Part shown: positions 6,261 through 63,819 of the stretch, piece by piece | How the letters are laid out: each line of letters opens with the position of its first letter | Position numbering within the stretch: position 1 is the first letter of the stretch | Assembly (NCBI RefSeq): GCF_947623445.1 | Contig: NC_135248.1 | Coordinates: forward strand, 2,598,977-2,662,976 | Direction: 5' to 3' | From: Clavelina lepadiformis | Taxonomy: Eukaryota | DNA length: 64,000 nt | Position numbers and translations under genes: made by a program | The notes under the pieces: generated by a model | Seen by the model: the letters and a program-made list of their open reading frames with translations, nothing else | Database searches by the model: none | Told to the model about the DNA's origin: nothing

Positions 6261-6525
6261 GAAACTTCTCACCGAAGTATTTAAATTTGTCCAAAATGTG
6301 TGGATAGGACTGAATGACATTTCCCGAGAAGGACAGTGGATGTGGATAGACGGTGTACAAGCGGCTGAAGGAAACGTCAACTGGTTAGCTGGTGAACCAA
6401 ACAATTCAGGAGATGAAGATTGTGCTGTGGTGAATGTGCCTGGCCACAACGGTGCAGTCGATTATCCATGTTCCTGGACCAAAATCGCTTTATGTGAAAA
6501 AATTGTCACAGACACTTGTCAGTAA
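6261..6525 (+). CDS. collectin-like gene, exon 4 (U1): C-terminal half of the CTLD with EPN motif, then stop
   Basis: Acceptor tttttttgcag|. Encodes KLLTEVFKFVQNVWIGLNDISREGQWMWIDG...AGEPNNSGDEDCAVVN...ALCEK. Stop TAA at 6523-6525. AATAAA at ~6654 and ~6666. Confidence 0.75.
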
Positions 6526-8116: not shown

Positions 8117-8150
8117 TATATATATATATATATATATATATACTGTGTAA
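8117..8150. repeat. (TA)n microsatellite embedded in a palindrome cacagta(ta)n tactgtg. Also at 16613-16646.
   Basis: Direct reading. U3 and U4 have only a few TA units at the orthologous site. Confidence 0.9.
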
Positions 8151-11100: not shown

Positions 11101-11214
11101 AATTATTTTACTCGACACTATATCGCTTAACAAAGTGGTCAAGTCTATATGCAATATAGTACTTATATTTTTTAAATATTGCAATGCCTGTTTTTTAATG
11201 TTGCAGTTTAAATA

Positions 11215-12018: not shown

Positions 12019-12157
12019 TAATAGGACTATTTGTACCAAAAACCACGTCATAAGTGCCCGCAAAAATATCGTTTATGTTGTTTTTATTTTCAATGTTCAA
12101 CCTTAAGTCTATTTTCTAATAGATTAAGTCATTGTTCTGAAAAGTAATCACTAAGAC

Positions 12158-12410
12158 ATGATGATGATGATGCTTGTATGCTTCTTATTTGTCACCGCAT
12201 CACTTGTAAACGGACAAGATTACTTGACTTGCTTGAGAAACAGTGACGCATTTGCTGGTATCAACCCTCAAGACACAGTATCCAACATTCGGGGCCCGCC
12301 AGGTTACCCTGGTAAACGGGGAAGTCCAGGTGACAGGGGTCTACAAGGTGACAAAGGTTCCAAGGGTGAACCCGGATCATCCGACCGTGAAGAAATTAGA
12401 CGCTTAAGAG
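12158..12410 (+). CDS. collectin-like gene, exon 1 (U2, identical to U1)
   Basis: ORF 12158-12421 is identical to 3662-3925. Confidence 0.7.
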
Positions 12411-12569
12411 GTGTGCGTTAGATCATACACTGACGTAGTGAATTGAACTGTTTCAATTTTCTCCTGATTTTATTTGCAATACATTATGTGGTCATACTTG
12501 TAAGCTTTCAAAAATCATGTGACAATTTTGTTAGTTATGAATGTTTTATGCAGCTGATTTGCTTTTCAG

Positions 12570-12635
12570 AAACCCAAGCTCTTATAAATATCGCCATAAG
12601 ACCACTTCAGGACAAAATATCACGCCTGTGTCAAG
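12570..12635 (+). CDS. collectin-like gene, exon 2 (U2)
   Basis: U1 coordinates + 8496; identical sequence. Confidence 0.55.
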
Positions 12636-12736
12636 GTTTGGTGCCGTTGTTAATAATAATGTTTTCTTTGATATGATCTTATCGAGTTTTTAGATTTGTT
12701 AAAAAATAACCTGACTTTTTTCATCCTATCAGAAGT

Positions 12737-13925
12737 GGTATACCGACACTTAATCACGCGACACTTAATCACTCGACACTTAATCACCGACACATAATCA
12801 CTAGAACATTTAATCACGCGACACATAATCACTTGGATGCGACAGCACTTGGACAGCGCCTTTGTCTATACTCTATAGCCTGTCTATACCGTCTTTGTTC
12901 TTTCAACTGTACACAGTACATTTTGAACTTGTTCCCGGTCTTATTTCTGCAGCAGTTTACTGCCTCGTTCAAAATAAAACGCGAGCAACCTACGATCGCT
13001 TCCTTGATGCAATTAAAACAATGATCCCCACTGCTGCACCGGAATGCGTTTTGCTCGATTTTGAGACTGCCGCAGTAAGTGCTTTCCGCACAGCATTTCC
13101 TACTGCAAATGTTAGGAGTTGTTATTTTCACCTTACACAAAGCGTCCTGCGCAAAGTTAATGAAATTGGCATGAAATGTGACTACGAGTCTGATGAGTGA
13201 TGACGAATTAAGAACAGCTGATAGGTGTTTACCAGCCTTAGCCATGGTCCCTTCCTCTGACGTAGTCGAGTCATTTCTGATCTTAGCTGATAGCATGCCC
13301 GATCACGAGAAGATGCCTGAGCTGCTTTCGTATTTCGAACACACATATATCAGAGGCAGACGACATCCGGGACGTGGTGAAAATTACGGCTCAGCCATCT
13401 TTCCAATCGAAAGTTGGAATCATTACGAAGCCGGGGCAGGTTGCATTGCAAGAACCACAAATGCAGTCGAAGGTTGGCATTTTGGTCTCGAAGTGCTTTT
13501 TCAATGCCACCACCCGACATTGTGGACTTTCATACAGGGAATTGAAAAAGACATTCAAATGCAACGTGCAAAGTTTCTGCAAGGAATTGCTGGTACTCAA
13601 CCTTCTATTCCAATACGGTACAAGGCACTGAAACTGCGCGTGCAAAACACAGTTGACCGTTATCTGTCAAGAGATTTTAGTTTATCTTCGTGCAGTTGCT
13701 TACATTTCCCATGCATGACATTGTTACCGAGTGTGTACCGTAGCCTTATCTGCGCAAGCAATGTTTAATCATTTTAACAAGTTCTTTTCAGGTTTATATT
13801 TGTTTTTTCGTGTGTAGACATGCAATTTTCGATACTGTAAATGTGTGATTAAATGTCCGAGTGATTAGGCCTATGTGTCGGTGATTAAGTGTCGCGTGAT
13901 TAAGTGTCACCAAACCATCAGAAGT
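12737..13925 (+). mobile_element. MULE-like element, U2 copy
   Basis: U1 coordinates + 8496; identical ORFs 12862-13200 and 13178-13768. Confidence 0.6.
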
Positions 13926-14500
13926 AATATCGCCATAAGACCACTTCAGGACAAAATATCACGCCTGTGCCAAGGTTTGATGCCGTTGTTAATAATGATG
14001 TTTCTTTGATATGATCTTATCGAGTTATTAGATTTGTTAAAAAAGAACCCCACTTTTTTCATCCTATCAGAAGTAACGCCATGCGAGCAAAGTTGTTTTG
14101 TTTGACTGTGTTTTCGCTGTTTTCTGCGCACGTACGAAAATTCTCCTGCTGGTCGGCTACATTCTGCCCTTTCACGCTTTAGATTTAAATTCATTTAAAA
14201 TAAATTCAACAGGATGTTATGAAAGCCATTATAACTGGCGTTGAAAAGTACGTAGTTCAGACCGAAAATGCTAGTTCTTGACTATCCCTTGGAAGCTTGT
14301 AGTATCAACCATGCTCAGAAATCAGGAACGTATCTGAAAGTCTTTAGTCGGCCTATACTAAGCTAATAAAAAATTGAAAATTTGTTATTTAACTCGTTTC
14401 TTCTTTGTACTTCTTCCTAAATGATATACTATGCTTATCAATGCTGACACTGGCAGTTTCTTATTGGATTAATTACTTTTTACAACTACTTCTTTCCAAG

Positions 14501-14648
14501 TTGCTGAAAGTGGTTGGTATACGCCGTTTAACGGATATCAATATCGCCTTACTGAAACTGAACAAAACTGGCAAGAAAGTCGACGTTTGTGCCAAGCAAT
14601 GGGCGGTGATCTGGCCGCTGTTGGAATGAGGAACGTCGTCATTCGAAG
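14501..14648 (+). CDS. collectin-like gene, exon 3 (U2)
   Basis: U1 coordinates + 8496; identical sequence. Confidence 0.7.
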
Positions 14649-14756
14649 GTTAGAAGTGGAATAAAACTGTCACATAAATGAAATATTACCACAACCACGT
14701 CCAGAAATGTGCATCACTGTAATGGCAGAAGACAACGAAGTAACGTTTTTTTGCAG

Positions 14757-15021
14757 GAAACTTCTCACCGAAGTATTTAAATTTGTCCAAAATGTGTGGA
14801 TAGGACTGAATGACATTTCCCGAGAAGGACAGTGGATGTGGATAGACGGTGTACAAGCGGCTGAAGGAAACGTCAACTGGTTAGCTGGTGAACCAAACAA
14901 TTCAGGAGATGAAGATTGTGCTGTGGTGAATGTGCCTGGCCACAACGGTGCAGTCGATTATCCATGTTCCTGGACCAAAATCGCTTTATGTGAAAAAATT
15001 GTCACAGACACTTGTCAGTAA
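14757..15021 (+). CDS. collectin-like gene, exon 4 (U2)
   Basis: ORF 14707-15021 is identical to 6211-6525. Confidence 0.75.
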
Positions 15022-18000
15022 GAGTTTGTGCAAAACTTGTGTCGTCTGCTTTTGATTGCAAAATTCCGTTTGCTGTCATCCATCTGAGTATTACGTCATT
15101 ACGTATAATCTTCCAGTGAACGCTTTAAAAACACGGATAAACTTGTAAAAATAAAACTATAAATAAACTACCTAACACGAAGCAGAGGTGATTAATAGCA
15201 GAATGCACGTAAAACATTTTATTCGACTCTGTTTAACTTGCATGTATGTTTTCTACGACGTCCTGCATTCATCAGCAGCGTTAAAGTTGGAATGATGTAA
15301 ATAACGGAAATTAATCAATAAACAACAACAACAATGTTTTAACAAGATAAAGAATATCATTGCTTCTCAGCCGGTGAGTCGCAAAGCTTTTTCAGGTGGG
15401 CCACGTAGATTGCTGAAATGTTTCTTTGCAAAACTGCAATATCTGTACCGCAAATGGGCGCCACCCACCGGCGGACCCAGCAACAACTAATATTGCACAC
15501 AAAAAAAGACAATTGAAGTATGGACAAGTGTTCAGTCGAGTCGTTGCAGTGAACGATAGCGTAATACGCGGACTAATTTGAATGCTGCAGACCCAACGGT
15601 TCATAAGATTTCACCTACGCATGAAATTGCAGAGATGATTGCAAAATTAACATGAGGTATCATATAAGTATATAATCGTTTTCCCTCAATGCCAACACAG
15701 TTACAACAAAAACAAAAAAAGAAAATAAGCATTAATGCTGGTTATGCAAAAGCACATGACGAAGGTGTTAAACTGCTTACTTATCAATAATGCAATTCTT
15801 TGGGTTGATTTGAACGGTATGACTTCGCTTTACATGTATATTTACTACAGAAATGGCTGCAAGAACAAGAGTTATAATGATGCAACACTGCCCAATAAAT
15901 GCGATCGTAAACATACACCGCAAAGTTAAGATTATTATCATTCCCATAATTTTGTGTGTCATTGTAAACGCTGTACTATTATTTGGTTCAAAAGTAGTGG
16001 ATGGTTGTTGTTTTGCACCGACTGGTAATAGGATCGCGGGTTGTTAATACGTCAACAGTAGCAATCGTACACAACAACGCAAGGCTTGAAAGGGAACATT
16101 GTGAAAGCCGTTTAGAAAAAGGTACAATGTGCTTTGTCCTAAGGTGCAAATCGATTTTTTCCAGAAAACAAAGTAAGTCCTACAGGACAAAAAGCCAAAC
16201 TTCGTTATTTCAGTTTGTTTCATTTCAAAGAACGCTATTGAGACTAAAAACTCTGATACTGACAGTGAACGGTTTATCAGCTTACAGAAACAGTGTAGTT
16301 TGAAAAGTTTTCATGCGTGAAATTTGAGAAAACATTTTGCAACATGTTAATTGATTGAAGATCCTGAAAAGTATAGAAAATTAATTAAGATTAAAGATAA
16401 CAAAAATGTAAAAGTAAAACAGCAAGAAAAATGATGACAAGTTGAGGGAAAATCATTTGTTTACTACGCGACTGGTTACAGTTTTCGTGAATCGGTCACC
16501 GACATTTTGCCGTCACACAACACACAAAATTTAAAACCAAAGCTCAGTTAGTGTTATCATAAATACATAAGTAGCCTTTACACAATACACATAAAAACAA
16601 ATATACACAGTATATATATATATATATATATATATATACTGTGTAATGTGTATATAAACTACCCGCAATTTGTCTTAACATTTTGTGTGTTATGCAAAGT
16701 GTAGTCGGTTGTGAAATAAATGGTAAGAAAAAAACGAACCGTAGCAGATATGACAGATAAATAAGCGCGTTGGTAGATCTCGTTATTTTAGAATGAGAGG
16801 CAAGTGCCGTAATAAGTTAACTTGAAAGTAATAAAAGGCTTTGTGTAAGTTCACTTGAAAATTTATGTTCATGAGTATTTATAAGAACCAAGCATTTAGC
16901 TCCAAAAGTCTGCCGCAAAATGTCGCAAATTTACCACTCACTGTAAACTGGGTGTTGAGAATTTTGACGCTTCAATGTAAAATCGACTTGCATGCCCAAC
17001 TCCGAATGAAGTATGGATTGTTGGGTACTCAATAGTACATCATGTGTATAGACAGCACGGATCAATATATTTTGTTCCTTTTTCTTCTGCTCTCCCAAAC
17101 CCACAGTAACCTCCCATCAGGAGAATCCAGAAGTCTAAACCATAGGTCGGCAACCAGCGGCTCTTTCATCTCTGTGCTCTGGTTCCCGCCACTCAGAGCC
17201 AATGAGCTGATTTAGGAAAACTTAATGTGATTAGCTAATGGTGGTTATTAGTGTCACGATGTAATAACTTAATGCGTTTGTCTGATTATTATTCAGATTG
17301 TTTTATGGTGATGTGGAAAATCTTATATAAACACTACCCAGTGGTTTTCGCGGGCATACAACGCATGACTGCTTGCCACTCACGTGATCCTAAGTTTGTT
17401 TTTGTTCGAGGTCGCATGACTTGGATATTGGTCTTTGTTTGATGACTCTGCGGATGTTCATCGTTGTAGTGAGAATTTTGTGAGGTTAACTACTGAAGTT
17501 TTTACGTCTAACTGTAAAGCATTGGTTCGAATTATACATATAGCGTTAGGTTTTTTGTTTTAAGTATCCAATTAGGTGTTGTGGATCTGAGTAGGCTTTA
17601 GTTTGGCGGAAACGAAACCAAATGGCTCTTTCAATGCTAAAGGTTGCCGACCCGTGACTAAACAATTCGCGTTTGACCACATTTTCTACTTTGTTCTCCG
17701 GGATACCCAGATTACTCACCTAAAGTAATTCATGGTCGAACCGTTGATATTTTACCGCTTGGTATAGCAAGCATGACTTGTTTTGCAAGTTTTTTTAGGC
17801 ATTCTGGTGACTTCATCATACCATCCTAGTTAGTAATGTGACGGTTACGTCACGAGTCACGAGTTGTTTTCGAAATGCTGGAGTTTTATTTTGGCATCTT
17901 GCAATTCAGTTGTTGATCGGACTTGAATTCTCTTCTAATGACGTTCAGATAAATTACCTCGCTTGATCTGGTGTGCCATATATATACTGTTGTCATGTTT

Positions 18001-19856
18001 GCAATTATTCCTTTACGTATCGATTTCACTGGTTACTACTGCGCAATGTAACATTCAGTCAGCTTTGCCCGAAGGTGAAAGCCTTTGTGTCTAATAATAA
18101 ATAAAAATGGGAACTTTATCATTTAGTAATATGCATAGACAGAATTTAAGCAACTAACAGCATAGTCACGCCGTTTGAGAAATGAGAACTCATATCGTTG
18201 AAGAAGAAGTAAAACAAGTTATTACCATCAACCGTCCTCGCTCATACTATAGTAATAGTCGTCAGTGTACGCGGTCTTTATGGCGAATATGTTTGTTGTG
18301 TAATACTTCACACAAGTAATACAGCAACGAAAATACTTATTTGTCATAGGAAATCGCAATTTGAAGAAGTAAGGGTAAGTTAAGGGCTTTAATTTTTAGA
18401 GAATGGCGTATTGCAGTGTTGTTCTATTCATCTGGTATAAGTTATACCATGAACACTTTTTAGAAATTCTGATTCTGAAACATCCACTTTCAAGCGCAAT
18501 TTATTGGTAAATGTCCAAGCTTCATGACCATAGATGGAAATTGGAAGAAAAACTGATTTAAAAAATGAGAGCTTAGCGGATATTAGAAAGGCCTCGCTTG
18601 TTGAAGTTCACGTATGACTGCACTTGCTTTTAAATTCAATCTTTGGTCGATCATGAGTTGCGTTACCAGGCGTTTGACTCCCACCTGCTTCGGTGTTTCT
18701 CCGCAGACTTGAAAAGAAAACCAATGAAAACCGAGTAAGGGTTTCAAGAGATTAAATTCCTCGGTTTTCTTTACGATTATTTTTATCTCGAAATGAACAA
18801 TCGCAAATAAACAAAGATCTCTGGCAACCACATTCACAGTGGACGGTGACTTACGACTGTTTAGTGTTTATTTTTCAAACGGAAACAACTCTTAGAACGT
18901 TTGTACCGCAGTTTAATGGCCACTATAATACTATTTAATGGCTGCTATCAATATCATACTTGTGCAACGCTCTCCAGAGTTAAATTCGAAGCACTCAATG
19001 CTACGTTTTTTTAGGATCAGAAAAGCATACGTAGCCATTTTTGCGTATTCCTAACAAGTTTGCAAATCTGGGAAAAAAATTCGTTAAGTGTAGAACATGT
19101 TGTCCAAAAATAGAATAAAAAGGCATTCGGTGTTAAAATTAGTAAACTTACCTACCCATGCATAACTAGGCCAGCACAGAACACGAAATCAAACAATAAT
19201 ATATGTAAGTTTAAACAGTGCATTAAACCTTTAATTTTAAATCCAATTTTCTAATTTCAACTTAGAAAAACGTCTGTTGGTTAAAATGTGATCATCAGGA
19301 TCAGCAAAAAAGAAAATAAAAGCAAATAAATGACTCAAAATTTATACATATCGAATATTATTACACAAATGAGTAACTTTTTGGTTACTAGTTACTGGAA
19401 TTTTTCGATTACTGTGTTATATATTAATTTGGTAAATAAGTTAATTAACTCATGACAGTGACGTCAGTACGTCTAAGCAAATTCACAGTACACTGGTAGT
19501 AGCCGCATAAGATATACGTCAGATTTATCTACCTGTCTCAGAGACATAATGTATTTGTTAAAGTCTTCGACCTTTTGAAATTGCTCCAGCGTAATACTTT
19601 AAATTATATTACTCGGCATTATATCGCTTGACAGAGTGGTCAAGTCTATATGCATTATAGTACTTATTTTTTAAATATTGCAATGCCTGTTTTTTAATGT
19701 TGCAGTTTAAACAATAGGACTATTTATACAAAAAACAACGTCATAAGTGCCCGTGAAAATATCGTTTATGTTGTTTTTATTTTCAATGTTCAACCTTACG
19801 CCTATTTTCTTATAGATTAAGTCTTTGTTCTGAAAAGTAAACACTAAGACAAAATA

Positions 19857-21101: not shown

Positions 21102-21209
21102 GTTAGAAATTGAATAAAAATGTCACATAAATGAAAAATTACCACAACCACGGCCAGAAATGTGCATCACTGTAATGGCAGGAGACAACGAGGTAACGTT
21201 TTTTTGCAG

Positions 21210-21474
21210 GAAACTTCTCACCGAAGTAATTAAATCTGTCCGAAATGTGTGGATAGGACTGAATGACATTTCTCGAGAAGGACAGTGGATGTGGATAGAT
21301 GATGTACGAGCGGCTGAAGGAAACGTCAACTGGTCAGCTGGTGAACCAAACAATTTTGGAAATGAAGATTGTGCTGTGGTGAATCGGCCTAGCTACAACG
21401 GTGCAGTCGATGTTCCGTGTTCCTTGACCAAATTCGCTTTATGTGAAAAAATTATCACAGATAATTGTCAGTAA
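21210..21474 (+). CDS. collectin-like gene, exon 4 (U3)
   Basis: ORF 21160-21474 encodes ...WIGLNDISREGQWMWIDDVRAAEGNVNWSAGEPNNFGNEDCAVVN...CEKIITDNCQ*. Confidence 0.7.
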
Positions 21475-33330: not shown

Positions 33331-33583
33331 ATGATGATGATGATATTTGTATGCTTCTTATTTGTCACCGCATCACTTGTAAACGGACAAGAATACTTGA
33401 CTTGCTTGAGAAATAGTGACGCATTTACTGGTATCAACCCCCAAGACACAGCATCCAACATTCGGGGCCCAACAGGTTACCCCGGTAAACGGGGAAGTCC
33501 CGGTGACAGGGGTGTACAAGGTGACAAAGGATCCAAAGGTGAACCCGGGTCATCCGACCGTGAAGAAATTAGACGCTTAAGAG
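33331..33583 (+). CDS. collectin-like gene, exon 1 (U5)
   Basis: ORF 33331-33594 encodes MMMMIFVCF... Donor AG|GTGTGC. Confidence 0.65.
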
Positions 33584-33743
33584 GTGTGCTTTAGATCACA
33601 CACTGACGTAGTAAATTGAACTGTTGCAATTTTCTCCTGATTTTATTTGCAATACATTGTGTGGTCATAAATGTAAGATTTTCAAAATCATGCGACAATT
33701 TTGTTTGTTATGGATGTTTTTTTTGCAGCTGATTTGCTATCAG

Positions 33744-34584: not shown

Positions 34585-34692
34585 GTTAGAAATAGAATAA
34601 AACTGTCACATAAATAAAATATTACCACAACCACGGCCAGAAATGTGCATTACCGTAATGGCAGAAGACAACGAAGTAACGTTTTTTTGCAG

Positions 34693-34957
34693 GAAACTTC
34701 TCACCGAAGTAATTAAATCTTCCCAAAATGTGTGGATAGGATTGAATGACATTTCTCGAGAAGGACAGTGGATGTGGATAGACGGCGTACGAGCGGCTGA
34801 AGGAAACGTCAACTGGGTAGCTGGTGAACCAAACAATTCAGGAGATGAAGATTGTGCTGTGGTGAATCGGCCTGGCTACAACGGAGCACTCGATTATCGG
34901 TGTTCCTTGACCCAATTCGCTTTATGTGAAAAAAATGTCACAGACACTTGTCAGTAA
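34693..34957 (+). CDS. collectin-like gene, exon 4 (U5)
   Basis: ORF 34643-34957; EPNNSGDEDCAVVN motif intact. Confidence 0.65.
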
Positions 34958-36883: not shown

Positions 36884-36956
36884 ATGAGAGTAACCAGAAC
36901 CCTACTTCTAGTTCTTGTATCCTCTGCATATGGGCAACCATCCTTTTATGATTTAC
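36884..36956 (+). CDS. LDLa-repeat LGR-like GPCR, exon 1: signal peptide
   Basis: ATG at 36884 encodes MRVTRTLLLVLVSSAYGQPSFYDL. Donor AC|GTAAGT, phase 1. Confidence 0.55.
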
Positions 36957-37176: not shown

Positions 37177-37683
37177 GTGATTGCCATTACCACAGACCGC
37201 GTTGTGGGTCTGATGAATTCAACTGCAAATGTGGAGATGAAGGATCTGATCACGAACCAGAATGCATTCCATGGTCGTCCGTGTGTAACGCCTTCAAAGA
37301 TTGCTCCAACGGGGCTGACGAAATCGATTGCCAGTGTCCTTCCGGCAGGTTTCAATGCAGCGTTTGTGAGCGCGGTGGCCTGGAAGATTGCCGCTCGGTG
37401 TTCCAGTGCGTCGATGAAAGCTTGTTGTGTGATTACGAAGAGCAATGCGTGACGTCAAGGGACGAATATGGCGGACAATGCGTAGAGGATCAAGGTTTTC
37501 AATGTGGGGACGGTCTTTTTATAACATCATGGTGGGAATGTGACGGATTTGATGACTGCATTAATGGAACTGATGAAAAGAATTGCCCGGATTGTTTGTT
37601 TTCTCACCAGCCCTATGCATGTAAATGCAATAGAAATGGCACAGAAGGCTGTGAAACGATTAACGCGTGTTTTGGAGTTTCAG
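37177..37683 (+). CDS. LDLa-GPCR exon 2: several LDLa-like cysteine modules
   Basis: Acceptor tacttag|. Anchored to ORF 37077-37733. 507 nt, phase 1 to phase 1. Motifs CGSDEFNC, CSNGADEIDC, CDGFDDCINGTDEKNC. Candidate GC donor CAG|GCAAGT at 37684. Confidence 0.55.
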
Positions 37684-38051
37684 GCAAGTTTAAATTATTT
37701 TTGTTCAAACTAATTACTAAATTAACATTTTAAAGACAAAAAAGTTGTTCTTATTTCTCTGCATAACGTTGCACACTTCCTTGAGCTGAAGATGCTACGC
37801 TACAAACTTTCAACGATTTTTTATGAAATGGTTGCGGAGTAAAAGATTATTTTCTTAACAACTTTTAGCCGCCAATTGTGCGAATACTGTTAAGTTAAAA
37901 CTTCAAGCTTGTGTGGATACGTGACTGCGCATTATGCATTGTATTGTGTGGACAAAATTTGTTTGTTGTACATCCAAGTTGGAGGATGTTTCATTTCGTT
38001 GGAAAATGCTTTTTCACCTTAAAATAATACAAAATGTAAACAATGTATTAG

Positions 38052-38192
38052 ATGCATGTGATGGATACGACTATTGCGAAGATGGCTCAGACGAACAAAT
38101 TTGCGACACATGTTCATCTGATCAATTAGTATGTGCCTGTAACCAAAACGGCAACAATACATGCGAAGGAAGGGCGTGCTATGACAACAACT
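38052..38192 (+). CDS. LDLa-GPCR exon 3
   Basis: Acceptor tattag|, donor ACT|GTAAGT. Encodes (D)ACDGYDYCEDGSDEQICDTCSSDQLVCACNQNGNNTCEGRACYDNNC. Anchored to ORF 37934-38266. Confidence 0.6.
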
Positions 38193-38288
38193 GTAAGTCA
38201 TTGTATGTTTGTCACCGAGTGCTTGATATCAGTATAATCGGATTATTCAAAGATAACAATAAGTAAACAAATATTTTTCATTTCGTAG

Positions 38289-38435
38289 TAAAGTGCAATG
38301 GGCACGCAGACTGCGAGGATGGAAGCGATGAATGGAATTGTGATTGTCCATCGTCGAGACCTGTTCGTTGTGAATGTAACCAGGAAAATAATTACACGTG
38401 CCAAGGACATGGATGGAAGTGCTTCAAAGAAACTG
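38289..38435 (+). CDS. LDLa-GPCR exon 4
   Basis: Acceptor ttcgtag|. Encodes KCNGHADCEDGSDEWNCDCPSSRPVRCECNQENNYTCQGHGWKCFKET. The only in-phase donor is CTG|GCAAGT, a GC-AG candidate. Confidence 0.5.
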
Positions 38436-39092
38436 GCAAGTGCATGCGTTACCAGAAAGTAGATTTAATGACAGCTTACAATTTGTATTGTATCGTGTTT
38501 TCGCCATTCTCTGCGGAGAAAAATCACAACCGCTATAGCACAATAAAGAACAGACTTACAAACAGTTAGGGAACAAGAAATCAGAGGCAAAGCTGAAAGG
38601 GCAAATATGCAAGATGGCAATAATGCAAATGTACTACAAAAGGTCAGGTTATCAGGAACAAACACAGCAACAGCAAGAACAACGAGTTTCCGAAGCTGTT
38701 AGCAAATAATAAGAAGTTCATAAGTTTAACATTTTCAAGATATCATTTCATTCCGTTCTGGCATTGGCCCCGGTTTTGCTTATGCGAATTATATATATTT
38801 GCTATGTTGTAGGATATATTAAGGATACTAACATAATGATATCAAAAAAACATATATAAGCGTATATAGTTTGCTTGGTTTTAGTTTGAATTAAGATTTT
38901 TGCTGTAATAGTTTATTTGACTACTGCTGCTATACTAATAACATAATTGCTGTCCACTGGATTTATTACACTATCACAGCTGTATTAATATATTCACAGA
39001 TTTTGACTTTTTAACGTCGTAGCTGTTGCACGATTTTTAGCTCAATTTCTACCTGTAACTACATAAATTGTATAAATGTTTGTGATTTGCAG

Positions 39093-39233
39093 ACTTATGC
39101 GATGGATACGTAGACTGCGAAGACGGGAGTGACGAAGGATATTGCTTCCCGTGTCCATCAACAAGACCGCTCAACTGTGCTTGCAATCAAGAAGACAGCA
39201 CATGCCATGACTTGCCATGTTATACGGAAAGTT
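39093..39233 (+). CDS. LDLa-GPCR exon 5
   Basis: Acceptor tttgcag|, donor GTT|GTAAGT. Encodes (D)LCDGYVDCEDGSDEGYCFPCPSTRPLNCACNQEDSTCHDLPCYTES. Confidence 0.6.
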
Positions 39234-39333
39234 GTAAGTCAAAACATAAATAATTACCAAATTGTCTCAAGCAGGCGTTGTATTATCAGCACACTTTGTT
39301 GGTTCGTGTGACTTATCTATTATTTGCATGTAG

Positions 39334-39483
39334 GGAAATGCGATGGTTTCGTTGATTGCGAAGATCACAGCGATGAGGAAAATTGCGACACTTGCAGCTG
39401 GTGGGCACCGGAACGTTGTGCCTGCAACCAAGCTGGTAACAATACGTGTGAAGGATTCGGCGAGCATTGCTTTCATGAGGAAT
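39334..39483 (+). CDS. LDLa-GPCR exon 6
   Basis: Anchored to ORF 39324-39641. Encodes (W)KCDGFVDCEDHSDEENCDTCSWWAPERCACNQAGNNTCEGFGEHCFHEE. Donor AAT|GTGAGC. Confidence 0.6.
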
Positions 39484-39787
39484 GTGAGCATTATCATATA
39501 TATGCTTTGCAAGCATTGCGTAATCGTAATATGTTTGGTTTGAAAATAGTTCTTTTGGTAAAAGTGAAAAATCTTAAAAGTTTTAAATCTCTTCAAAGGT
39601 CTCTTAGAATTTATACCCTTGCAGCTGCAACAGAAAGTTAGCTGTTTTTCCTTAAAAGTTGCGGTCCCTTAAGATTTCTATTAATTCTATTAACTATTCT
39701 ATTAATATTGCCATCGCCAAAATCAAACCTTGCAAAAACTCCTGTCTACGACATTTCACATAATTTTCTACGACGTTTAATTGACAG

Positions 39788-39934
39788 ACATGTGCGATGG
39801 ATACCACGACTGCGCAGATGGAAGCGATGAATGGAATTGCCACATTTGTCCGGAAACTAGACCTCTCAATTGTGGTTGTAACAATGCAGATGGAAACAAC
39901 ACATGTGAATACTTGTCGTGTTACCAAGAAAGCT
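39788..39934 (+). CDS. LDLa-GPCR exon 7
   Basis: Acceptor ttgacag|, donor GCT|GTAAGT. Encodes (Y)MCDGYHDCADGSDEWNCHICPETRPLNCGCNNADGNNTCEYLSCYQES. Confidence 0.6.
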
Positions 39935-40036
39935 GTAAGTAGGGCTTGCTTTGTGTAAAATCCTGGTGTAATGAAATATTAGTTTTTCTCTTGTTAATTG
40001 TGACACGATGAAATGGTTTTTAATCATTTTTCATAG

Positions 40037-40186
40037 GGAAATGCGATGGAATACTGGACTGTGAAGACCACAGCGACGAATTGGGTTGCGAGGTTTGCAC
40101 GTCGTCGCGACAACATCGATGTGCTTGCAACCAAGTTACCAACAACACGTGCGAGGAACATGATCCACCATGTTTCAGTGAAGACG
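40037..40186 (+). CDS. LDLa-GPCR exon 8
   Basis: Acceptor tttcatag|, donor ACG|GTAAAA. Encodes (W)KCDGILDCEDHSDELGCEVCTSSRQHRCACNQVTNNTCEEHDPPCFSED. Confidence 0.6.
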
Positions 40187-40317
40187 GTAAAATTGTCTCT
40201 TAACAAACTAATCTTGGTGTAAGAAATATGACGACTTAGACTGCTGTTTACAAACAAAGGTTTGCAAACTAATTCTTCTAATTCAAATATTTAATAAAAA
40301 TAATTCTGTCATAATAG

Positions 40318-40467
40318 CTTTCTGTGATGGTTTCTATGACTGCACTGACGGCAGTGATGAACTTAATTGCAATTCCTGTCCATCGTGGAAACCTCGCACT
40401 TGCGCCTGCGCCCAACATGACAATAAAAGCTGTCAAAATTATGGCTTACAATGTTATTCTGATGAAG
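40318..40467 (+). CDS. LDLa-GPCR exon 9
   Basis: Acceptor ataatag|, donor AAG|GTGAGC. Encodes (A)FCDGFYDCTDGSDELNCNSCPSWKPRTCACAQHDNKSCQNYGLQCYSDE. Confidence 0.6.
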
Positions 40468-40645
40468 GTGAGCTTAATTTTGTCGGCTTTCCATGAATAA
40501 AAATTAACTCAATAATTGAAAAATTTTAACTCCCTTTAAAAACTTTGAAAGCATTCAAGTGATTTTTGTCAACAATAAACCATAAAATAGATAGTCAATT
40601 AATACATGCACGAAATTTATGTCATAAATTAATTATGATTTGCAG

Positions 40646-43131
40646 AAAGATGCGATGCTAAATCGGATTGCGACGATTCATCCGACGAACTCAATTGCAC
40701 CTGTCCAGTGAATACATTCAAATGTTTATGCTTTCTAGAGGATTATCCTACTTGTGGTGTCAGTCAGGGCTGCCTCTCAATGCAACACGTGAATGATGGC
40801 AAATGTGACTGCGACAGCTGTAACGACGAAGACCAAGTGATAACAATTCACAAACGGAAATGCGGTTCTTGCGATTTGAACATTTTTCGGCTGAAAAATA
40901 TAACAGTTTGTATTTCGCCTTGGTGTGACGTCGCAACTTGTTTCAAAGTTCCTTCTCTAAAACGCCTGGACCATGATCGTCCAAGTCATGAGTACATTTG
41001 CACTTCATTTTGTTCCAACGATACTGATTCAAGCCATTGCACTGTCATGCAATGCGCAGATGGAACTCCTATTCTGGGCGAGATGGATTTCTGCAATTAC
41101 AGGAAGGATTGTGAAGACGGAAGTGACGAAATAACAGCCGACTTCGGTTTCAAATGTTCTTCAGTATTCTCTCCTCGCGCATGCGCACTTCCTCAAGTGA
41201 ACTTGTACGACAACAAAGCAGATTGCTATGATGGGTCTGATTTATGTTTTGACGAAAGTGGAGCATTTCATTGCTTCAGATGCCTGGACAGCAAATTAAT
41301 CATCGCTTCGCAACAAGTGTGTGACGGTAAATTAGATTGCTATGACTCATCTGATGAGTGCCTTTGTGAGGATGTCGCTGCAACGCAATGTGTAACGACC
41401 GAGCATTGCAACGTAAATACAATCATAGGAGATGAAAGCGCGGCTGGTATTAATTCATCTAAACCATGTATTGGTGATACTTGCCAAAGCTTTCTTGAAG
41501 CGGCTACGATCGAGTGTCAAACCAAGCAGGCCGTGGTTGTAGCGACCCTGTGCGACGGTAGACCGGAGTGTAAAGATTTTTCGGACGAGTGCAAGTCGTG
41601 CCCTAGCCCTCCACCATTCTGTTCTGACGTATGCGCCACATTCTACCTCATAGGAGATCGTTATTGCGATGGCGAGATTGACGAGGCTTGGAAGTTCCTC
41701 AATAACTCCAATTGTCCTCAAGGATTTGATGAACGCCTGTGTTCGAAGAGATTCGATTGTAAAGCTGGGACTAAGGTCAGTGTAGACATTTTACAGCGAT
41801 GCGACGGGAGATTGGATTGCGACGATGGAAGTGATGAGAATGATTGTCCTCATCGACACAAATGTGAAGTTAAAGGAGGATTAATATCAATTCCTGAAGC
41901 TCTTGTCTTAGATGGACAGCGGGATTGTATCGATGGGTCGGATGAGTTTAGGTCTGGAATATTTTCATCACGTTTAAATTTGATCAGCGACAAGCACTTA
42001 GAAGGGTGGTTTTGGATGGCTTCATTACTCATTATGTTGGGTAACGGCCACGTCATTATATCGACCATCAAGCGGCTACGAAGAAAGCATGTTGGGCTTG
42101 AGGCTAAATCTAACCATATTCTACTCCTTAACCTTTCCATTTCTGACTTCCTTATGGGAGTATATTTGTTAATAATCTTGGGAAAAGGAGTGGAATACGC
42201 TGGTAGCTATTCTGAATTCGACTATGAATGGAGAACAAGTTCAGTTTGTTCATTTGCCGGAGTCATCTGCATGATTTCCAGCGAAACGTCTTGCTTTGTG
42301 ATGCTACTCCTCACTGCTTTCCGATTTTCGTCCGTGCTATGGCCGTTTAATGGTCATGTGAGGTCGCCAAAACTTTGGACAGCAGCGGTCACTTTTGCGT
42401 GGTTGGTTTCAATTTTACTTGCCACATTGCCCACATTTCTTCCTCATTTTAGTCGAGGAATTGTCTTCGTCAGTCAATTTGCGACATCTGATACAGTTAC
42501 TGAAGAGTTCCTCATATCGTTTGCTTGTAGGTTGTCGGGTATCACCAACACGACAATGGAGGAATCTGGGGATCCCTTGACAACTGCTAAAGCATTTCTA
42601 AAGAATTCTTTTTCTCAGTTTGCTCCACAAGGGGTGATTGGGTATTACGGAACGACCAGCGTGTGTCTGCCGACATTCTTTGCGACTCGTAACGACAGGT
42701 TCTGGATCTACTCTGTCGTTATCATCACATTTAATCTTCTATCATTTTTATCTGTCTGTGCTGGTTACATCACGATTTGGAGAAAGGCATCCAAGACGCC
42801 TGGTCAAAGCCCACGATCCAAAAAGCAAAGTGGAACGTTGCAGAGACGCATCACCTTGCTCATAGTTACAGATATGTTGTGTTGGATTCCCGTTTGCATC
42901 ATGACTTACGTGAGTGTGGGAGGCGTTGACCTTCCTCCAGGCATTGAAATCTTTACAGCTGGTGTACTTTTGCCGATCAACAGCCTCTTAAATCCATTTA
43001 TTTACTCCACATTTGTTGAAAAGCAAGTAAAGTTGGTCCTACACAAACTAGGTGCACGACCAGCACTATCGACAAGTTCACCAGGAACTGAAATGCGAGA
43101 TCTTTCACAACGAGGTTCAACGGTTAATTGA
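40646..43131 (+). CDS. LDLa-GPCR terminal exon: about 8 more LDLa-like modules, then a rhodopsin-type 7TM domain of LGR (glycoprotein-hormone/relaxin receptor) type and a C-terminal tail
   Basis: Acceptor tgatttgcag|. ORF 40708-43131. LDLa signatures CDGRLDCDDGSDENDC and CDGKLDCYDSSDEC. 7TM at ~42007-43020: TM1 WFWMASLLIMLGNGHVIISTI, TM2 LNLSISDFLMGVYLLIIL (compare NLAFADFCMG.YLLLIA of LH/TSH receptors), TM3 followed by FRF, TM7 NSLLNPFIYSTF. No LRR region. Confidence 0.85.
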
Positions 43132-60531: not shown

Positions 60532-61920
60532 GTAAGTGCACAACTTAGCGTACTGCATGCGCAAAAGCGTAAGTCGTTTAGACTGACTTTGTAGGTTTTG
60601 GGTGAAGGAACGCAATAATTTTACCAAAACAGTCGCTCTCTTCGTAAAGCTATGAAGGCTGTTATAGTCGCTCAAAAACACACCCAACTTACTGTATGAA
60701 ACGTACAGCAAACAATTTTTAGTGGATCTAGGGCATAGTAAAAACCAAAGGGGTTACACGAAGGACAGGCAGTGTTGTGATTTTCTCCTTGCTACAACAA
60801 TCCGCTCATTCCTATTAGACGTCGATTTTAGGTGCATATAAACTTGATGGAAAGCGCTTGAAGTAGCCCACAATTTGTACAAGCCATCTACCAACAGCAA
60901 CTTCCGGCGTCGTCCATAAATAGATTCATTATTTTCAATTTAACTCATTCATGGGACCATGGCTACTTATGGCAGAGTTTTGCGCGTTTTTTTACCTCAG
61001 CTGCAATATTTGCCAACTCACAAAACTTCGTCTAAGGTAGTTGTGCCAACTGTTGTGTGATTCAGGCCTATTTATACATCACAATAGTCTCAATGCTTTA
61101 CATATTGCACCCTGTCGCATAATATCAAACGTCACTGTACTATTTTAGCATAGTGTATGCCACTGACGCTTACCCTCAAGTCAGGCAAGTAACTTAGTCA
61201 AGTCATGTGATAACGAGAATAAACTCAGTATATTTGCAAGTAGCGTGCATACATCTTTTCCACACGAGATATAATATGGTTGTATGGGTTTAGAATTTCT
61301 TTGATTTCTATAATCTATAAAATAACAATCTATAAATACACAAAAACGTAATGTTAAGTCTGTCGTAATATTTTATTGGTAGAGTAAAACTCGCTATAAA
61401 TCTTATTGCCCGCCGTAAAAATGTATACAACTCGGCATTGTGTCGAGTGGTTTTTAATGATTTTCCGCTATTTGCCCTAGGTTTAAAAATGCTGAACTAG
61501 GCTCGCTTGGGTCAACGGCTGCAGATATATTTAGATAAATAGCGCGTGTGTGTATTTTAAAAGTTACAAGAGCACGGTTTAACCCGTACGCTTGCACATG
61601 CTTAAAAACTACTTTCGACGTTCACTTTGTGTTAAAAGCGACGCTGAAAACACTTTGTTGCAAGAGCATTATCCAGCTATTTTGACAACATGTCGGCCGC
61701 ATGCACGTTTTTATCTAAATCTGTCCGTGGCAAAGACGTGAAATTTCCTGTGTCACGTGCAGTTATTTGTACGTTCGCTCGTGCGTCATTTCCTTCTATG
61801 CCGGAAGTAGGCAGTTTAGTTGAATTTATTAACCTACAGTTACTGACGTACAGACGTACGGCCAATACTTTTTGACGTCTACATATACGTTATATTCGTG
61901 CTACTTGTACTTTGCTTCAG

Positions 61921-62067
61921 GATAGCGACCTACGTACACTCTTCGGAACCGGTTCTTGGGGTAGTTTGGAGCATTTGGATCTTTCCTTCACCCATGTGAC
62001 GTCAGCATCGGTCGATGTCTTACGTTATCTCCCTAACCTACGTCATCTCAACTTGTGGGCAACTCAG
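61921..62067 (+). CDS. CMIP: CMIP-like exon (start of the LRR region)
   Basis: Anchored to ORF 61912-62154. ttgcttcag| DSDLRTLFGTGSWGSLEHLDLSFTHVTSASVDVLRYLPNLRHLNLWATQ |GTAATT. Confidence 0.65.
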
Positions 62068-63819
62068 GTAATTTTATTTCCTAGAATTTATTTTCGATAC
62101 ATCTGGTTTGTGCTTGAAATAACAGCCACGTATGGTTGTGTAGTGTGGTACTGACCAAGTCCCGCTACTACTACAGTTGCTGCAACGATCTCGCCATAGT
62201 TTGTTTTGTTAATATTCAAGTTTAAACGCACAGTGCACTAGAGTTTGTCATTAAGGGCCGGGGTAGGTCACAGAAACATTTAATTTCAGACTCTGTTGGG
62301 CACAACGGGTAATTTATTGTTCCTGAGATAAACAAAGCTTCACATCACATGATGCTCATTGCTCATTTCACGCGGTTAAAGCAGACCATTTTGACGGCCA
62401 AACAAAGGGAATAAAGCTGAATTAAAATCAAAGCATGGTTCAAATTTAACTCGACGATTTGGACTAATTCTTACCTTGATTTGATTGCAATTTTGCTCCT
62501 TTCGTTTGCAGCGCGATTAAAATCTGCTTCCATCGTTTCATTCAGTTATAACCAGGGTTTCCACCGGTCTGGACTCGAAATTAAGGACGACTGGGAAACG
62601 AAAGAAGAATACTTCCTTAAACAGTGCACAACAGGAGAAGGCAATCAATGTTCTTAAAAAAAAAGAAAAACGAGACACTATTTGCATGTTCTTAATTTTG
62701 GGATCTTTTTTGTACAAAATGGTATACTAAAGGTGTCGACATGCCCAAAACTGAAACCTCTGCCCCAAAAATACGACAAAAGTAAGGACGCAAGTGAACA
62801 TAAGGACAAATCTTAGAAATAAGGACGATATGGCAACCCGGGTTATTAGAGTATATGGGATTATAGGTGCTTGAATATTTATGCCAGTCGACGCCATTAT
62901 TATCTTCCAGGCTTTTAAGCCGGTTAATTATCGATTGCTTAGTTTTTGTTTTCTACATAAGCTCCCAGAGATTAGTGTTTTTATAAATAATGTATAAGCG
63001 AGAAAGTCAGACAAATAGACTTTTCATTCTGCGCTGCTGCTTTTAAACTAGCTAAATAATGATGATTCAAGGTGAAGCGAGAAAAGCGACCAACATCTTT
63101 CAATTATGGATTCCTTGTACTGTGCGTATAGAAAGTTGACGTCATTGTTTGTTGTTTAGCATTGTGACGCAGGTTTCGCCATTGTTGATAATTTTTTCGG
63201 TCAACTTTTTTACAACGAACGGCAGCTGCTGTTTTTAGCCAAATTTATTTTTATTCATTTTTCTTAAAGTTTCGTACCAGAATTTATTTCCCCAATTTTT
63301 CATGTTCTTAAAAAGTTTATAAATATTTTCGCGGTCAAAAGCGATGGAGTCGTCTATTTATTAAATGCAAATTGGAAGTCGTTTAAATTTAGAACGCGCG
63401 AAAGCAAAACGCAGATAAATTGTTTAAAAGATGTTTATCGTAAAATATCGTCAAGTGCTGAAACTTTCAGTTTGTTTAGAAGCTTTCAAAGTCTGACGCT
63501 TGTGAGTCTTTATTTACGGAATTAATAATACAAAGGCTTGGGTAAAAGCACTCAACTTCTTTATTTAGAATATGTAAATTTTTTCTCGTTTCCCATTTTG
63601 AAAGACAAAACAGTTCTATTTTCATCGACAAGCAAAAATCCATTATGCGAGTTTACACACCAAACGATATATGATACTACACGCAAGAAATCTGGCTGTT
63701 GTAGACCTATAATGAACCCCAACACCTAAAACAACTTGCACCAGTATGAACTTAAATGCTGAAAGGTGTGTAAAGCTAACAACCTGCCTAATTGCAACTA
63801 TTTTGTTCATACTTGACAG

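What the first reader, a model, noticed from the sequence alone, without database searches (positions are those of the whole stretch)
38052..40467. Seven consecutive 141-150-nt phase-1 exons each encode one 47-50-aa, 8-cysteine LDLa-like module: a tandem exon-duplication series
Each exon starts xCDGxxDCxDxSDExxC and continues C-P/x...C-x-C-N-x5-TC-x5-C-x3. Introns are all phase 1 and fall at the same position within the module. Neighbouring exons share 50-60% protein identity. This is a clean example of domain expansion by internal tandem exon duplication. The module has 8 Cys where a canonical LDLa has 6, so there is an extra disulphide and a C-x-C-N-Q/N insert.
Basis: seen in the sequence. 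Interest (0 to 1): 0.5.

Follow-up and report, generated by a model that had tools for sequence, protein, structure and literature searches.

The report
Repeated LDLa-module exons in sea-squirt receptor
Seven small, same-sized exons of a sea-squirt (Clavelina) G-protein-coupled receptor gene encode a run of eight calcium-binding LDL-receptor-type modules that carry two extra cysteines; this is an ordinary case of growth by repeat duplication in a known tunicate receptor family, with an apparently undescribed variant of the module.

Summary
Seven exons lie at 38052-40467, are 141-150 nt long and are all phase 1-1. Each encodes 47-50 aa with 8 Cys. My 10-exon model translates exactly to RefSeq XP_076825646.1 (Clavelina lepadiformis LOC143471153).

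The gene is a tunicate 'LDLRR-GPCR', a family described in Ciona in 2008. It has a signal peptide, many LDLa modules, no LRRs, and a relaxin-receptor-like 7TM.

The interpretation needs two corrections.
- The exon is not the domain. Each intron splits an LDLa module two residues before Cys4. An exon therefore encodes the C-half of one module plus the N-half of the next. The array is eight modules spread over nine exons.
- The duplications are old. Introns share no similarity, and paralogs at 43-55 % identity have the same intron position with 2-6 such exons.

The seventh exon is a cassette. It is skipped in isoform X2 and deleted in a ~90 % identical paralog.

The '8-Cys = LDLa plus insert' idea is supported. 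Pfam matches at E 1e-25, and AlphaFold/Foldseek give the LDLa fold with a ~10-residue internal insertion after Cys2. That insertion is probably a disulphide-closed, N-glycosylated hairpin. I found true 8-Cys modules only in named ascidian proteins and unnamed metagenome contigs. Interest is modest.

The parts
36884..36956 (+). Coding exon 1: start codon and signal peptide (MRVTRTLLLVLVSSAYGQPSFYDL, then a split codon). It ends in phase 1 with donor GTAAGT.
   Evidence: The translation is identical to XP_076825646.1 (P0124).
37177..37683 (+). Coding exon 2 (507 nt). It holds three LDLa-type modules without introns, then the N-terminal half of array module M1 (Ca at 37593). The donor is GC-AG type (GCAAGT).
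38052..38192 (+). Short exon 1 (141 nt, phase 1-1): C-half of M1 (CDGYDYCEDGSDEQIC) plus N-half of M2.
38289..38435 (+). Short exon 2 (147 nt, phase 1-1): C-half of M2 plus N-half of M3. The donor is GC-AG type (GCAAGT).
39093..39233 (+). Short exon 3 (141 nt): C-half of M3 plus N-half of M4.
39334..39483 (+). Short exon 4 (150 nt): C-half of M4 plus N-half of M5.
   Evidence: The M4-M5 pair was modelled.
39788..39934 (+). Short exon 5 (147 nt): C-half of M5 plus N-half of M6.
40037..40186 (+). Short exon 6 (150 nt): C-half of M6 plus N-half of M7.
40318..40467 (+). Short exon 7 (150 nt): C-half of M7 plus N-half of M8. It is the most divergent exon. It behaves as a cassette: skipped in RefSeq isoform X2 and absent from the genomic DNA of the close paralog.
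   Evidence: X1 is 1363 aa, X2 is 1313 aa; window 40282-40510 has no counterpart in L006..
40646..43131 (+). Last coding exon. It holds the C-half of M8 (to 40698), further degenerate LDLa-type modules, and the rhodopsin-type 7TM domain (TM1 from about 42007; CWIP at 42880; NPFIY at 42991), then the stop codon.

Best explanation
**What it is.** The region is the middle of the ectodomain-coding part of a Clavelina lepadiformis gene (LOC143471153). The gene encodes a tunicate 'LDLRR-GPCR': a signal peptide, a long run of LDL-receptor class A (LDLa) modules without leucine-rich repeats, and a relaxin-receptor-like rhodopsin-type 7TM domain.

**Layout.** The seven short exons, plus the end of the exon before and the start of the exon after, encode eight tandem LDLa modules. 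Every intron interrupts its module at the same place: phase 1, in the codon two residues before Cys4. Each exon therefore carries one repeat period that is out of register with the domain.

**Origin (inferred).** A repeat period that already contained an intron was multiplied by unequal recombination. This copied the intron to the same position in every new module. It happened before the Clavelina paralogs diverged. Exon number has since drifted between genes (2, 6, 6, 6 and 7).

**Consequence.** All exons are symmetric and all are cut at the homologous point of the fold. Removing or adding one exon therefore rebuilds a complete chimeric module. This is seen in isoform X2 and in the paralog that lost exon 7.

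**The module (predicted).** Each module is a canonical Ca2+-binding LDLa in which Ca = Cys1, Cb = Cys2 and Ce = Cys3. A 9-11-residue hairpin (x-Cc-N-Q-x4-5-Cd) is inserted straight after Cys2. It is probably closed by a Cc-Cd disulphide and usually carries an N-x-S/T sequon. Linkers between modules are only 1-2 residues.

**Function (inferred from LDLR-family and RXFP1 knowledge).** The acidic Ca2+ cages bind basic residues of an unknown ligand, and the ectodomain passes this on to the 7TM domain.
For: **Gene model and family**
- The gene model is identical to the RefSeq protein.
- Pfam gives Ldl_recept_a at 162.6 bits with 14 stretches, 7tm_1 at 71 bits, and no LRR family.
- The best solved-structure sequence match of the 7TM is RXFP1 (7tmw_R, E 8e-26), followed by TSHR, LHCGR, FSHR and LGR4.
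- The family was described in Ciona: LDL-A tandem repeats, no LRR, and a TM region like the INSL3/relaxin receptors (PMC2396169).

**Exon and domain are out of register**
- Exon peptides hit only Pfam profile positions 20/21-37. Re-phased peptides hit positions 2/3-37.

**Age and plasticity of the array**
- The same intron position and phase occur in paralog genes: P0002 has 6 short exons, P0004 has 6, P0010 has 2 and P0122 has 6.
- Introns show no mutual similarity.
- M2-M8 are 53 % identical to each other on average, against 30-45 % to the other LDLa-type modules of the same protein.
- Exon 7: X1 and X2 differ by exactly 50 aa. A genomic indel covers exon 7 in the paralog. The resulting hybrid M7N+M8C module keeps the 8-Cys pattern.

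**Module topology**
- Across 91 family modules the N-half has 5 Cys with very regular spacing. N-halves have 3 or 5 Cys and almost never 4.
- F, L or Y sits at position -2 of Cb, as at canonical Cys2.
- Cutting out x-Cc..Cd scores higher than cutting out Ca..Cb in 104 of 116 modules against my canonical LDLa HMM. It also raises the Pfam score of all 8 window modules.
- AF2 models reach pLDDT 79.7 and 85.7. In M4 the only two strands are the residues before Cb and Ce/Ce+1. In M5 two extra strands lie inside the insert.
- Foldseek aligns single LDLa chains of 35-37 aa over all 48 query columns, with TM 0.74-0.77 and rmsd 2.1 A (46 columns).
- Seven of 8 modules keep the D/N, D, D, E Ca2+ ligands (read from the sequence).
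- Seven of 8 inserts carry a sequon.
Against: - No coordinates were available, so the disulphide pairing (Cc-Cd) is inferred from secondary structure and alignment lengths, not measured.
- Pfam's own alignment puts Cys1-3 on Cc, Cd and Ce, because the spacing fits.
- The order and unit of the duplications are unresolved. Exons 3/5 and 4/6 and the roughly 100-nt introns within the pairs 1-2, 3-4 and 5-6 hint at two-exon blocks. In domain phase, however, the best pairs are M4/M6 (71 %) and M2/M5 (61 %).
- The Ciona homolog and the metagenome homologs are single-exon genes. I cannot say whether the introns were gained in the Clavelina lineage or lost elsewhere.
- Isoform X2 is an automatic RefSeq model, and no RNA evidence was available here.
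- Module statistics are inflated by shared ancestry.
- Ligand and signalling are unknown.
Confidence: 0.8

Rival explanations
1. The two extra cysteines form an N-terminal extension rather than an insert. Under this reading Cc, Cd and Ce are canonical Cys1-3, and Ca-x6-7-Cb is a small disulphide-closed loop in an enlarged linker between modules.
For: - Pfam's HMM aligns the modules this way, with profile positions 2/3-37 starting at Cc.
- The spacings Cc-x6-7-Cd-x4-6-Ce equal the canonical C1-x6-C2-x4-5-C3.
- phmmer alignments to LRP2 place canonical Cys1 on Cc.
Against: - Position -2 of Cd is mostly D, N or G, whereas position -2 of Cb is F, L or Y as at canonical Cys2.
- Excising Ca..Cb scores lower than excising Cc..Cd in 104 of 116 modules. 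Excising Cc..Cd raises the Pfam score in all 8 window modules.
- In the AF2 model of M4, the strand before Cb pairs with Ce/Ce+1.
- Foldseek aligns the whole 48-residue module end to end with 35-37-residue LDLa chains.
- A sequon placed right before Cd would sit on the buried face of the canonical hairpin.
Confidence: 0.2
2. The module array first grew inside a single exon, as in the intronless Ciona and metagenome homologs. Introns were later inserted independently into each module at the same position, so the exons are not duplication units.
For: - Ciona P0047 and the metagenome genes P0019 (11 tandem 8-Cys modules) and P0048 are uninterrupted ORFs.
- The introns of the window gene share no sequence similarity.
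Against: - It requires eight independent insertions at exactly the same codon position and phase.
- That codon is not conserved (it encodes D, L, D, W, Y, W, A, E), so no common proto-splice site is evident.
- The non-array modules in exon 2 and in the last exon have no introns.
- Paralogs with 2, 6 and 7 such exons all use the same position. Copying the intron along with the period explains this more simply.
Confidence: 0.08
3. The repeat is a distinct cysteine-rich fold that only shares the CDGxxDCxDxSDE motif with LDLa.
For: - There are eight Cys instead of six.
- Four of the eight isolated modules fall below Pfam's 24.1-bit cut-off when scored alone.
Against: - The whole region scores 89.8 bits, E 1.2e-25.
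- All top Foldseek hits are LDLa modules, with TM to 1ajj and 8ua4_R of 0.74-0.77.
- All six canonical Cys and the acidic Ca2+ ligands are present.
Confidence: 0.02

Closest known systems
Ciona 'LDLRR-GPCR' cluster (Kamesh et al. 2008, BMC Evol Biol 8:129; PMC2396169)
   Same: Both are tunicate rhodopsin-family GPCRs with tandem LDL-A repeats at the N-terminus, no LRRs, and a TM region most similar to the relaxin/INSL3 receptors. Both families show lineage-specific expansion, with at least 18 Clavelina paralogs. Ciona members also contain 8-Cys modules (P0047, P0060, P0146).
   Different: The paper does not mention the 8-Cys variant or gene structure. The Ciona gene checked here is a single exon. 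The Clavelina genes carry phase-1 introns inside each array module.
Type C LGRs: RXFP1/RXFP2 and Lymnaea GRL101
   Same: The 7TM domain is the closest by sequence (RXFP1 E 8e-26), and LDLa module(s) sit at the N-terminus. GRL101-like proteins appear among the hits.
   Different: Those receptors have a leucine-rich-repeat domain, which binds the hormone in RXFP1/2 (my knowledge). RXFP1/2 have one canonical 6-Cys LDLa. The window protein has no LRR. GRL101-type hits had no 8-Cys modules.
LDL receptor / LRP ligand-binding (class A, complement-type) repeats and the LDLR gene's exon-per-repeat organisation (Sudhof et al. 1985, cited in PMC2396169)
   Same: Both show the same fold and Ca2+-cage motif, phase-1 symmetric exons of one repeat length, and expansion by duplication.
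   Different: In LDLR the introns lie between repeats (my knowledge, not tested here). Here they lie inside each repeat, before Cys4. Linkers are 1-2 residues rather than mostly 3 or more. There are two extra Cys in an insert after Cys2.
LDLa modules with long Cys-free C2-C3 loops in annelid proteins (P0083 Dimorphilus, P0087 Paralvinella)
   Same: Extra residues sit at the same site of the fold, between Cys2 and Cys3.
   Different: These loops have no cysteines and no CxC motif. They are not in GPCRs.

Membership tests
Pfam PF00057 Ldl_recept_a (LDL receptor class A module) | Sequence matches the family HMM above the curated cut-off (24.1 bits). | tested here: met
   The seven-exon peptide scores 89.8 bits, E 1.2e-25, with 7 stretches. 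The whole protein scores 162.6 bits with 14 stretches. Scored one at a time, 4 of 8 modules pass. After excision of the insert, 7 of 8 pass.
Pfam PF00057 Ldl_recept_a (LDL receptor class A module) | Six conserved cysteines with canonical spacing, and the acidic Ca2+-binding cluster (C-D/N-x3-D-C-x-D-x-S-D-E). | tested here: met
   All eight modules have the six positions plus two more. The Ca2+ ligand positions are intact in 7 of 8; M1 has Y at position C5-1 (read from the sequence).
Pfam PF00057 Ldl_recept_a (LDL receptor class A module) | LDLa three-dimensional fold. | tested here: met
   AF2 models have pLDDT 79.7 and 85.7. Foldseek top hits are all LDLa. 1ajj gives TM 0.74 and rmsd 2.1; 8ua4_R gives TM 0.77. 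This is a predicted structure, not a solved one.
Pfam PF00057 Ldl_recept_a (LDL receptor class A module) | Disulphide pattern C1-C3, C2-C5, C4-C6, and Ca2+ binding. | not testable with these tools
   Model coordinates are not exposed, and this needs biochemistry.
Tunicate LDLRR-GPCR (Kamesh et al. 2008) | Rhodopsin-family 7TM most similar to the relaxin/INSL3 receptors. | tested here: met
   7tm_1 scores 71.1 bits. RXFP1 is the best PDB sequence match, E 8e-26. CWIP and NPFIY motifs are present.
Tunicate LDLRR-GPCR (Kamesh et al. 2008) | N-terminal tandem LDL-A repeats and absence of LRR domains, in a tunicate. | tested here: met
   There are 14 LDLa stretches and no LRR family in Pfam at E <= 1. 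The organism is Clavelina lepadiformis, from source names.
Type C LGR (RXFP1/2, GRL101) | Leucine-rich-repeat ectodomain between the LDLa module(s) and the 7TM. | tested here: not met
   No LRR Pfam match in the protein.
Tandem exon (repeat-period) duplication series | Consecutive symmetric exons of one repeat length, mutually homologous, with introns at homologous positions and in the same phase. | tested here: met
   The same holds in four paralog genes.
Tandem exon (repeat-period) duplication series | Residual similarity of the duplicated introns (the mark of a recent event). | tested here: not met
   No intron pair aligns beyond chance-level matches of at most 23 nt. This is consistent with old duplications and does not argue against duplication as such.

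The most novel reading that the evidence does not exclude
The 8-Cys module may be a tunicate-specific subclass of LDLa. In this reading a disulphide-stapled, N-glycosylated hairpin inserted after Cys2, together with 1-2-residue linkers, turns the usual flexible string of modules into a stiff, glycan-decorated rod. Because every exon is cut at the same point of the fold, exon skipping, loss and gain would create receptor variants with different module numbers. That would diversify ligand recognition across a large, fast-evolving GPCR family of unknown ligands.
Probability: 0.15. Interest if true: 0.5.

Novelty: new variant of a known kind. Interest (0 to 1): 0.3.

Why it matters
The practical value is mostly in correct annotation.

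- Exon and domain are out of register here. Domain-boundary or exon-shuffling arguments made from exon borders would be wrong.
- Pfam aligns these modules in a register that the structure prediction does not support.

If the 8-Cys hairpin-insert LDLa is confirmed, it adds a lineage-restricted structural variant to one of the most widespread extracellular modules. It would also give a sequence signature (C-x6-7-C-x-C-x6-7-C-x4-6-C before CDG) for recognising tunicate LDLRR-GPCRs. These receptors are still orphans 18 years after their description.

The cassette behaviour of exon 7 is a small, concrete example of how symmetric intra-domain introns allow module number to change without breaking a fold.

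Tried and rejected
- **Homolog search with the N-half profile.** The second found only 21 word-sharing candidates and no hit, so the word index is unsuited to such short Cys-rich profiles. I replaced it with the exhaustive representative search.
- **Intron-intron similarity.** This would have dated the duplications, but nothing rose above chance.
- **Two-exon duplication block.** Exons 3/5 and 4/6 are the most alike, and roughly 100-nt introns lie within the pairs 1-2, 3-4 and 5-6. This is suggestive in exon phase. It is not borne out in domain phase, where M4/M6 and M2/M5 are the best pairs, nor by intron lengths in paralog P0002. I left it unresolved.
- **'8-Cys' pattern hits outside tunicates.** Hits in crab perlecan and salmonid LRP are false. 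They are Cys5-Cys6-x-Cys1 of two canonical modules joined by a 1-residue linker.
- **Co-loss of Cys pairs as a test of pairing.** It was uninformative. The 'CCxx' class came only from annelid modules with Cys-free long loops, and the 'CxCC'/'CCxC' classes were canonical modules aligned in the other register.
- **Donor for exon 7.** No family member is more than 56 % identical to it. A recent duplication or conversion origin is therefore rejected. Deletion in the paralog is favoured.
- **Failed look-ups.** P0018 and P0123 had no record.
- **Literature.** Searches for an 8-Cys or extra-disulphide LDLa found nothing relevant. 'LDLRR-GPCR' occurs only in the 2008 paper.
Full report
**1. What is in the sequence**

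The window is AT-rich eukaryotic DNA with 34-41 % GC. Reading 37500-41000 and anchoring the splice sites gives seven exons:
- 38052-38192 (141 nt)
- 38289-38435 (147 nt)
- 39093-39233 (141 nt)
- 39334-39483 (150 nt)
- 39788-39934 (147 nt)
- 40037-40186 (150 nt)
- 40318-40467 (150 nt)

All have AG acceptors. All lengths are multiples of three and all are flanked by phase-1 introns. Donors are GT, except for GCAAGT after 38435. The donor of the preceding exon (after 37683) is also GCAAGT.

Neighbouring exons are 42-57 % identical. The most similar pairs are not neighbours: exons 3/5 at 64 % aa and 72 % nt, 1/4 at 59 %, and 4/6 at 58 %.

**2. The gene**

The exons belong to a 10-exon gene on the + strand:
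- Exon 1 (36884-36956) encodes the signal peptide.
- Exon 2 is 37177-37683.
- The seven short exons follow.
- The last exon is 40646-43131.

All nine introns are phase 1. The spliced translation is identical to RefSeq XP_076825646.1, 'uncharacterized protein LOC143471153 isoform X1' of the colonial ascidian Clavelina lepadiformis. An independent annotation of a second assembly (CAK8683041.1) uses the same junctions.

Pfam finds Ldl_recept_a (162.6 bits, 14 stretches) and 7tm_1 (71 bits), and no LRR family. The 7TM part is closest to RXFP1 among solved structures (E 8e-26), followed by the glycoprotein-hormone receptors and LGR4. It keeps the CWIP and NPFIY motifs.

This architecture is the 'LDLRR-GPCR' cluster that Kamesh et al. 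described in Ciona in 2008 as a lineage-specific expansion (PMC2396169). Clavelina has at least 18 paralogs among my hits.

**3. Exon is not domain**

The best Pfam stretch in the seven-exon peptide (residues 126-161) spans an exon junction.
- Scanned alone, every exon peptide matches only the C-terminal half of the LDLa profile (positions 20/21-37, 15-24 bits).
- Peptides re-cut after Cys6 match almost the whole profile (positions 2/3-37, 17-34 bits).

The intron therefore lies inside each LDLa module, in the codon two residues before Cys4. That is the position of the canonical Trp. Each exon encodes the C-half of module n, a 1-2-residue linker, and the N-half of module n+1.

In domain register there are eight complete modules, M1-M8. 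M1 starts in exon 2 (Ca at 37593) and M8 ends in the last exon (40698). M2-M8 are on average 53 % identical to each other, against 30-45 % to the other LDLa-type modules of the same protein. The non-array modules have no introns.

**4. The eight-cysteine module**

Over 91 family modules the pattern is C6-x1-2-Ca-x6-7-Cb-x-Cc-x6-7-Cd-x4-6-Ce-x6-C4-D-G-x2-D-C5-x-D-x-S-D-E-x2-C6. N-halves have 3 or 5 Cys and almost never 4.

Two registers are possible, because 'C-x6-7-C' occurs twice.
- Register (i): Pfam and phmmer put canonical Cys1-3 on Cc, Cd and Ce.
- Register (ii): Ca = Cys1, Cb = Cys2, Ce = Cys3, with x-Cc...Cd as an insert.

Four results favour register (ii):
- Position -2 of Cb is F, L or Y (63 of 91), like the canonical Phe before Cys2. 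Position -2 of Cd is mostly D, N or G.
- Deleting x-Cc...Cd gives a higher score than deleting Ca...Cb-x against an HMM of 295 canonical modules. This holds in 104 of 116 modules and in all eight window modules. With Pfam's own HMM the deletion raises the score of all eight, for example M1 from 16.7 to 24.3 and M5 from 26.1 to 33.3 bits.
- In the AlphaFold2 model of M4-M5 (58 sequences, pLDDT 79.7), the only two strands in M4 are the residues just before Cb and Ce/Ce+1. This is the canonical hairpin. The single-module model of M5 (91 sequences, pLDDT 85.7) adds a two-stranded mini-hairpin (N12-Q13 and N16-N17) inside the insert.
- Foldseek aligns single LDLa chains of 35-37 residues (1ajj, 8ua4_R, 8ufb_R) over all 48 query columns, at TM 0.64-0.77 and rmsd 2.1-3.2 A. 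That means end-to-end alignment with about 11 internal gap columns. The two-module model gave 46 columns for 1ajj.

I therefore read the module as a canonical LDLa with a 9-11-residue hairpin inserted after Cys2, presumably closed by a Cc-Cd disulphide. This is a prediction.

Seven of the eight inserts in this gene carry an N-x-S/T sequon. Family-wide, 28 of 91 have one directly before Cd, against 0 of 441 canonical modules at the equivalent place. Seven of eight modules keep all the acidic Ca2+ ligands; M1 has Tyr at position C5-1.

**5. Distribution of the variant**

I searched a profile of the N-halves against 1.84 billion representative proteins. It gave 263 hits at E <= 0.001.
- Among the best 150, only about 13 contain true 8-Cys modules.
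- The named ones are from Ciona intestinalis and Phallusia mammillata.
- The rest are unnamed metagenome contigs.

Pattern matches in crab perlecan and fish LRP are artefacts of 1-residue linkers. GRL101-type and amphioxus hits have none. Some annelid LDLa modules have long Cys-free Cys2-Cys3 loops, which shows that this site tolerates insertions. I found no paper describing an 8-Cys LDLa. The Ciona paper does not mention it either.

**6. History of the exon series**

The introns share no similarity beyond chance. Other Clavelina paralog genes have the same intron position and phase:

| Paralog | Identity to window protein | Short exons |
|---|---|---|
| P0002 | 55 % | 6 |
| P0004 | 46 % | 6 |
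| P0010 | 43 % | 2 |
| P0122 | same 90 %-identity cluster | 6 |

A 28 % relative (P0065) has a different intron pattern. A Ciona member (P0047) and two metagenome homologs are single uninterrupted ORFs. One of the metagenome homologs has 11 tandem 8-Cys modules.

The array with its introns therefore predates the Clavelina paralog radiation. Exon number has changed since. Whether the introns were gained in this lineage or lost elsewhere cannot be decided here.

Identical position and phase across eight modules, in a non-conserved codon (D, L, D, W, Y, W, A, E), is most simply explained by duplication of a period that already contained the intron.

**7. Exon 7 as a cassette**

- RefSeq isoform X2 (P0001, 1313 aa) lacks exactly the 50 residues of exon 7.
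- In the close paralog's genomic DNA, window 40282-40510 has no counterpart. This stretch is exon 7 plus about 36 nt and 43 nt of flanking intron. The flanks beyond it align at 90-96 %.
- The paralog protein has 1:1 counterparts of M1-M6, then a hybrid M7N+M8C with an intact 8-Cys pattern.
- Exon 7 is the most divergent exon and has no donor above 56 % identity. A recent gain is therefore unlikely and deletion in the paralog is favoured.

This shows the practical consequence of the exon layout. Any exon can be dropped and a complete chimeric module results.

**8. Function**

No function has been shown. Two inferences follow from established knowledge of LDLR-family modules and of RXFP1 (my knowledge, and the discussion in PMC2396169):
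- The Ca2+ cages probably bind basic residues of a ligand.
- The membrane-proximal LDLa-like element, 20 residues before TM1, may couple binding to the 7TM domain.

Ligand and G-protein coupling are unknown.

**9. Verdict**

- Supported: the modules are LDLa, the extra cysteines are an insert, and the array arose by duplication.
- Not supported: 'one exon, one module'; seven modules; and a clean, recent series.

The gene belongs to a known tunicate receptor family and the phenomenon is textbook. The 8-Cys hairpin-insert LDLa and the intra-domain intron layout are modest, apparently undescribed variants.

Noticed in passing
window 1-35100 (+ strand): There is a tandem array of about five copies of a 6.5-8.5 kb unit, 90-99.6 % identical (1-11212 against 8497-19711 is 99.57 %). 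Each copy carries a collectin-like gene. This consists of a signal peptide plus a collagen G-x-y exon (e.g. 33331-33594; Pfam Collagen 26.9 bits) and a C-type lectin exon with an EPN motif (6211-6525, 14707-15021, 21160-21474, 34643-34957; Lectin_C 42 bits).
   Followed up: partly
window 4366-5272 and 12862-13768 (+): The two youngest array copies each contain an identical ORF pair with a MULE transposase domain (Pfam PF10551, 44 bits). This suggests a transposon remnant was copied along with the unit.
   Followed up: partly
window 37684-37689 and 38436-38441: Two of the nine introns of the receptor gene use GC-AG splice sites (donor GCAAGT). Both junctions are used by the RefSeq model.
   Followed up: partly
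window 37593-40698 (modules M1-M8): Seven of the eight modules (all but M4) carry an N-x-S/T sequon inside the Cc-Cd insert. These are 7 of the 13 sequons of the whole ectodomain. Family-wide, 28 of 91 modules have a sequon directly before Cd, against 0 of 441 canonical LDLa at the matching place.
   Followed up: partly
L004 1001-4069 (Ciona intestinalis), L002 1535-5968 and L003 1001-4438 (metagenome contigs): Homologous LDLa-GPCR genes in Ciona and on unnamed marine metagenome contigs are single uninterrupted ORFs. One has 11 tandem 8-Cys modules. This contrasts with the intron-per-module layout in Clavelina. The source organisms of the metagenome contigs are unknown.
   Followed up: partly
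L006 4767-5037 against window 40187-40645: The ~90 % identical paralog has a 271-nt intron where the window has intron 8, exon 7 and intron 9. A stretch of about 190-230 nt including the whole exon is missing, and the reading frame and module pattern are preserved.
   Followed up: yes
window 61912-62154 (+): A short ORF has weak leucine-rich-repeat matches (LRR_4, 25 bits). It is probably an exon of a different downstream gene.
   Followed up: no
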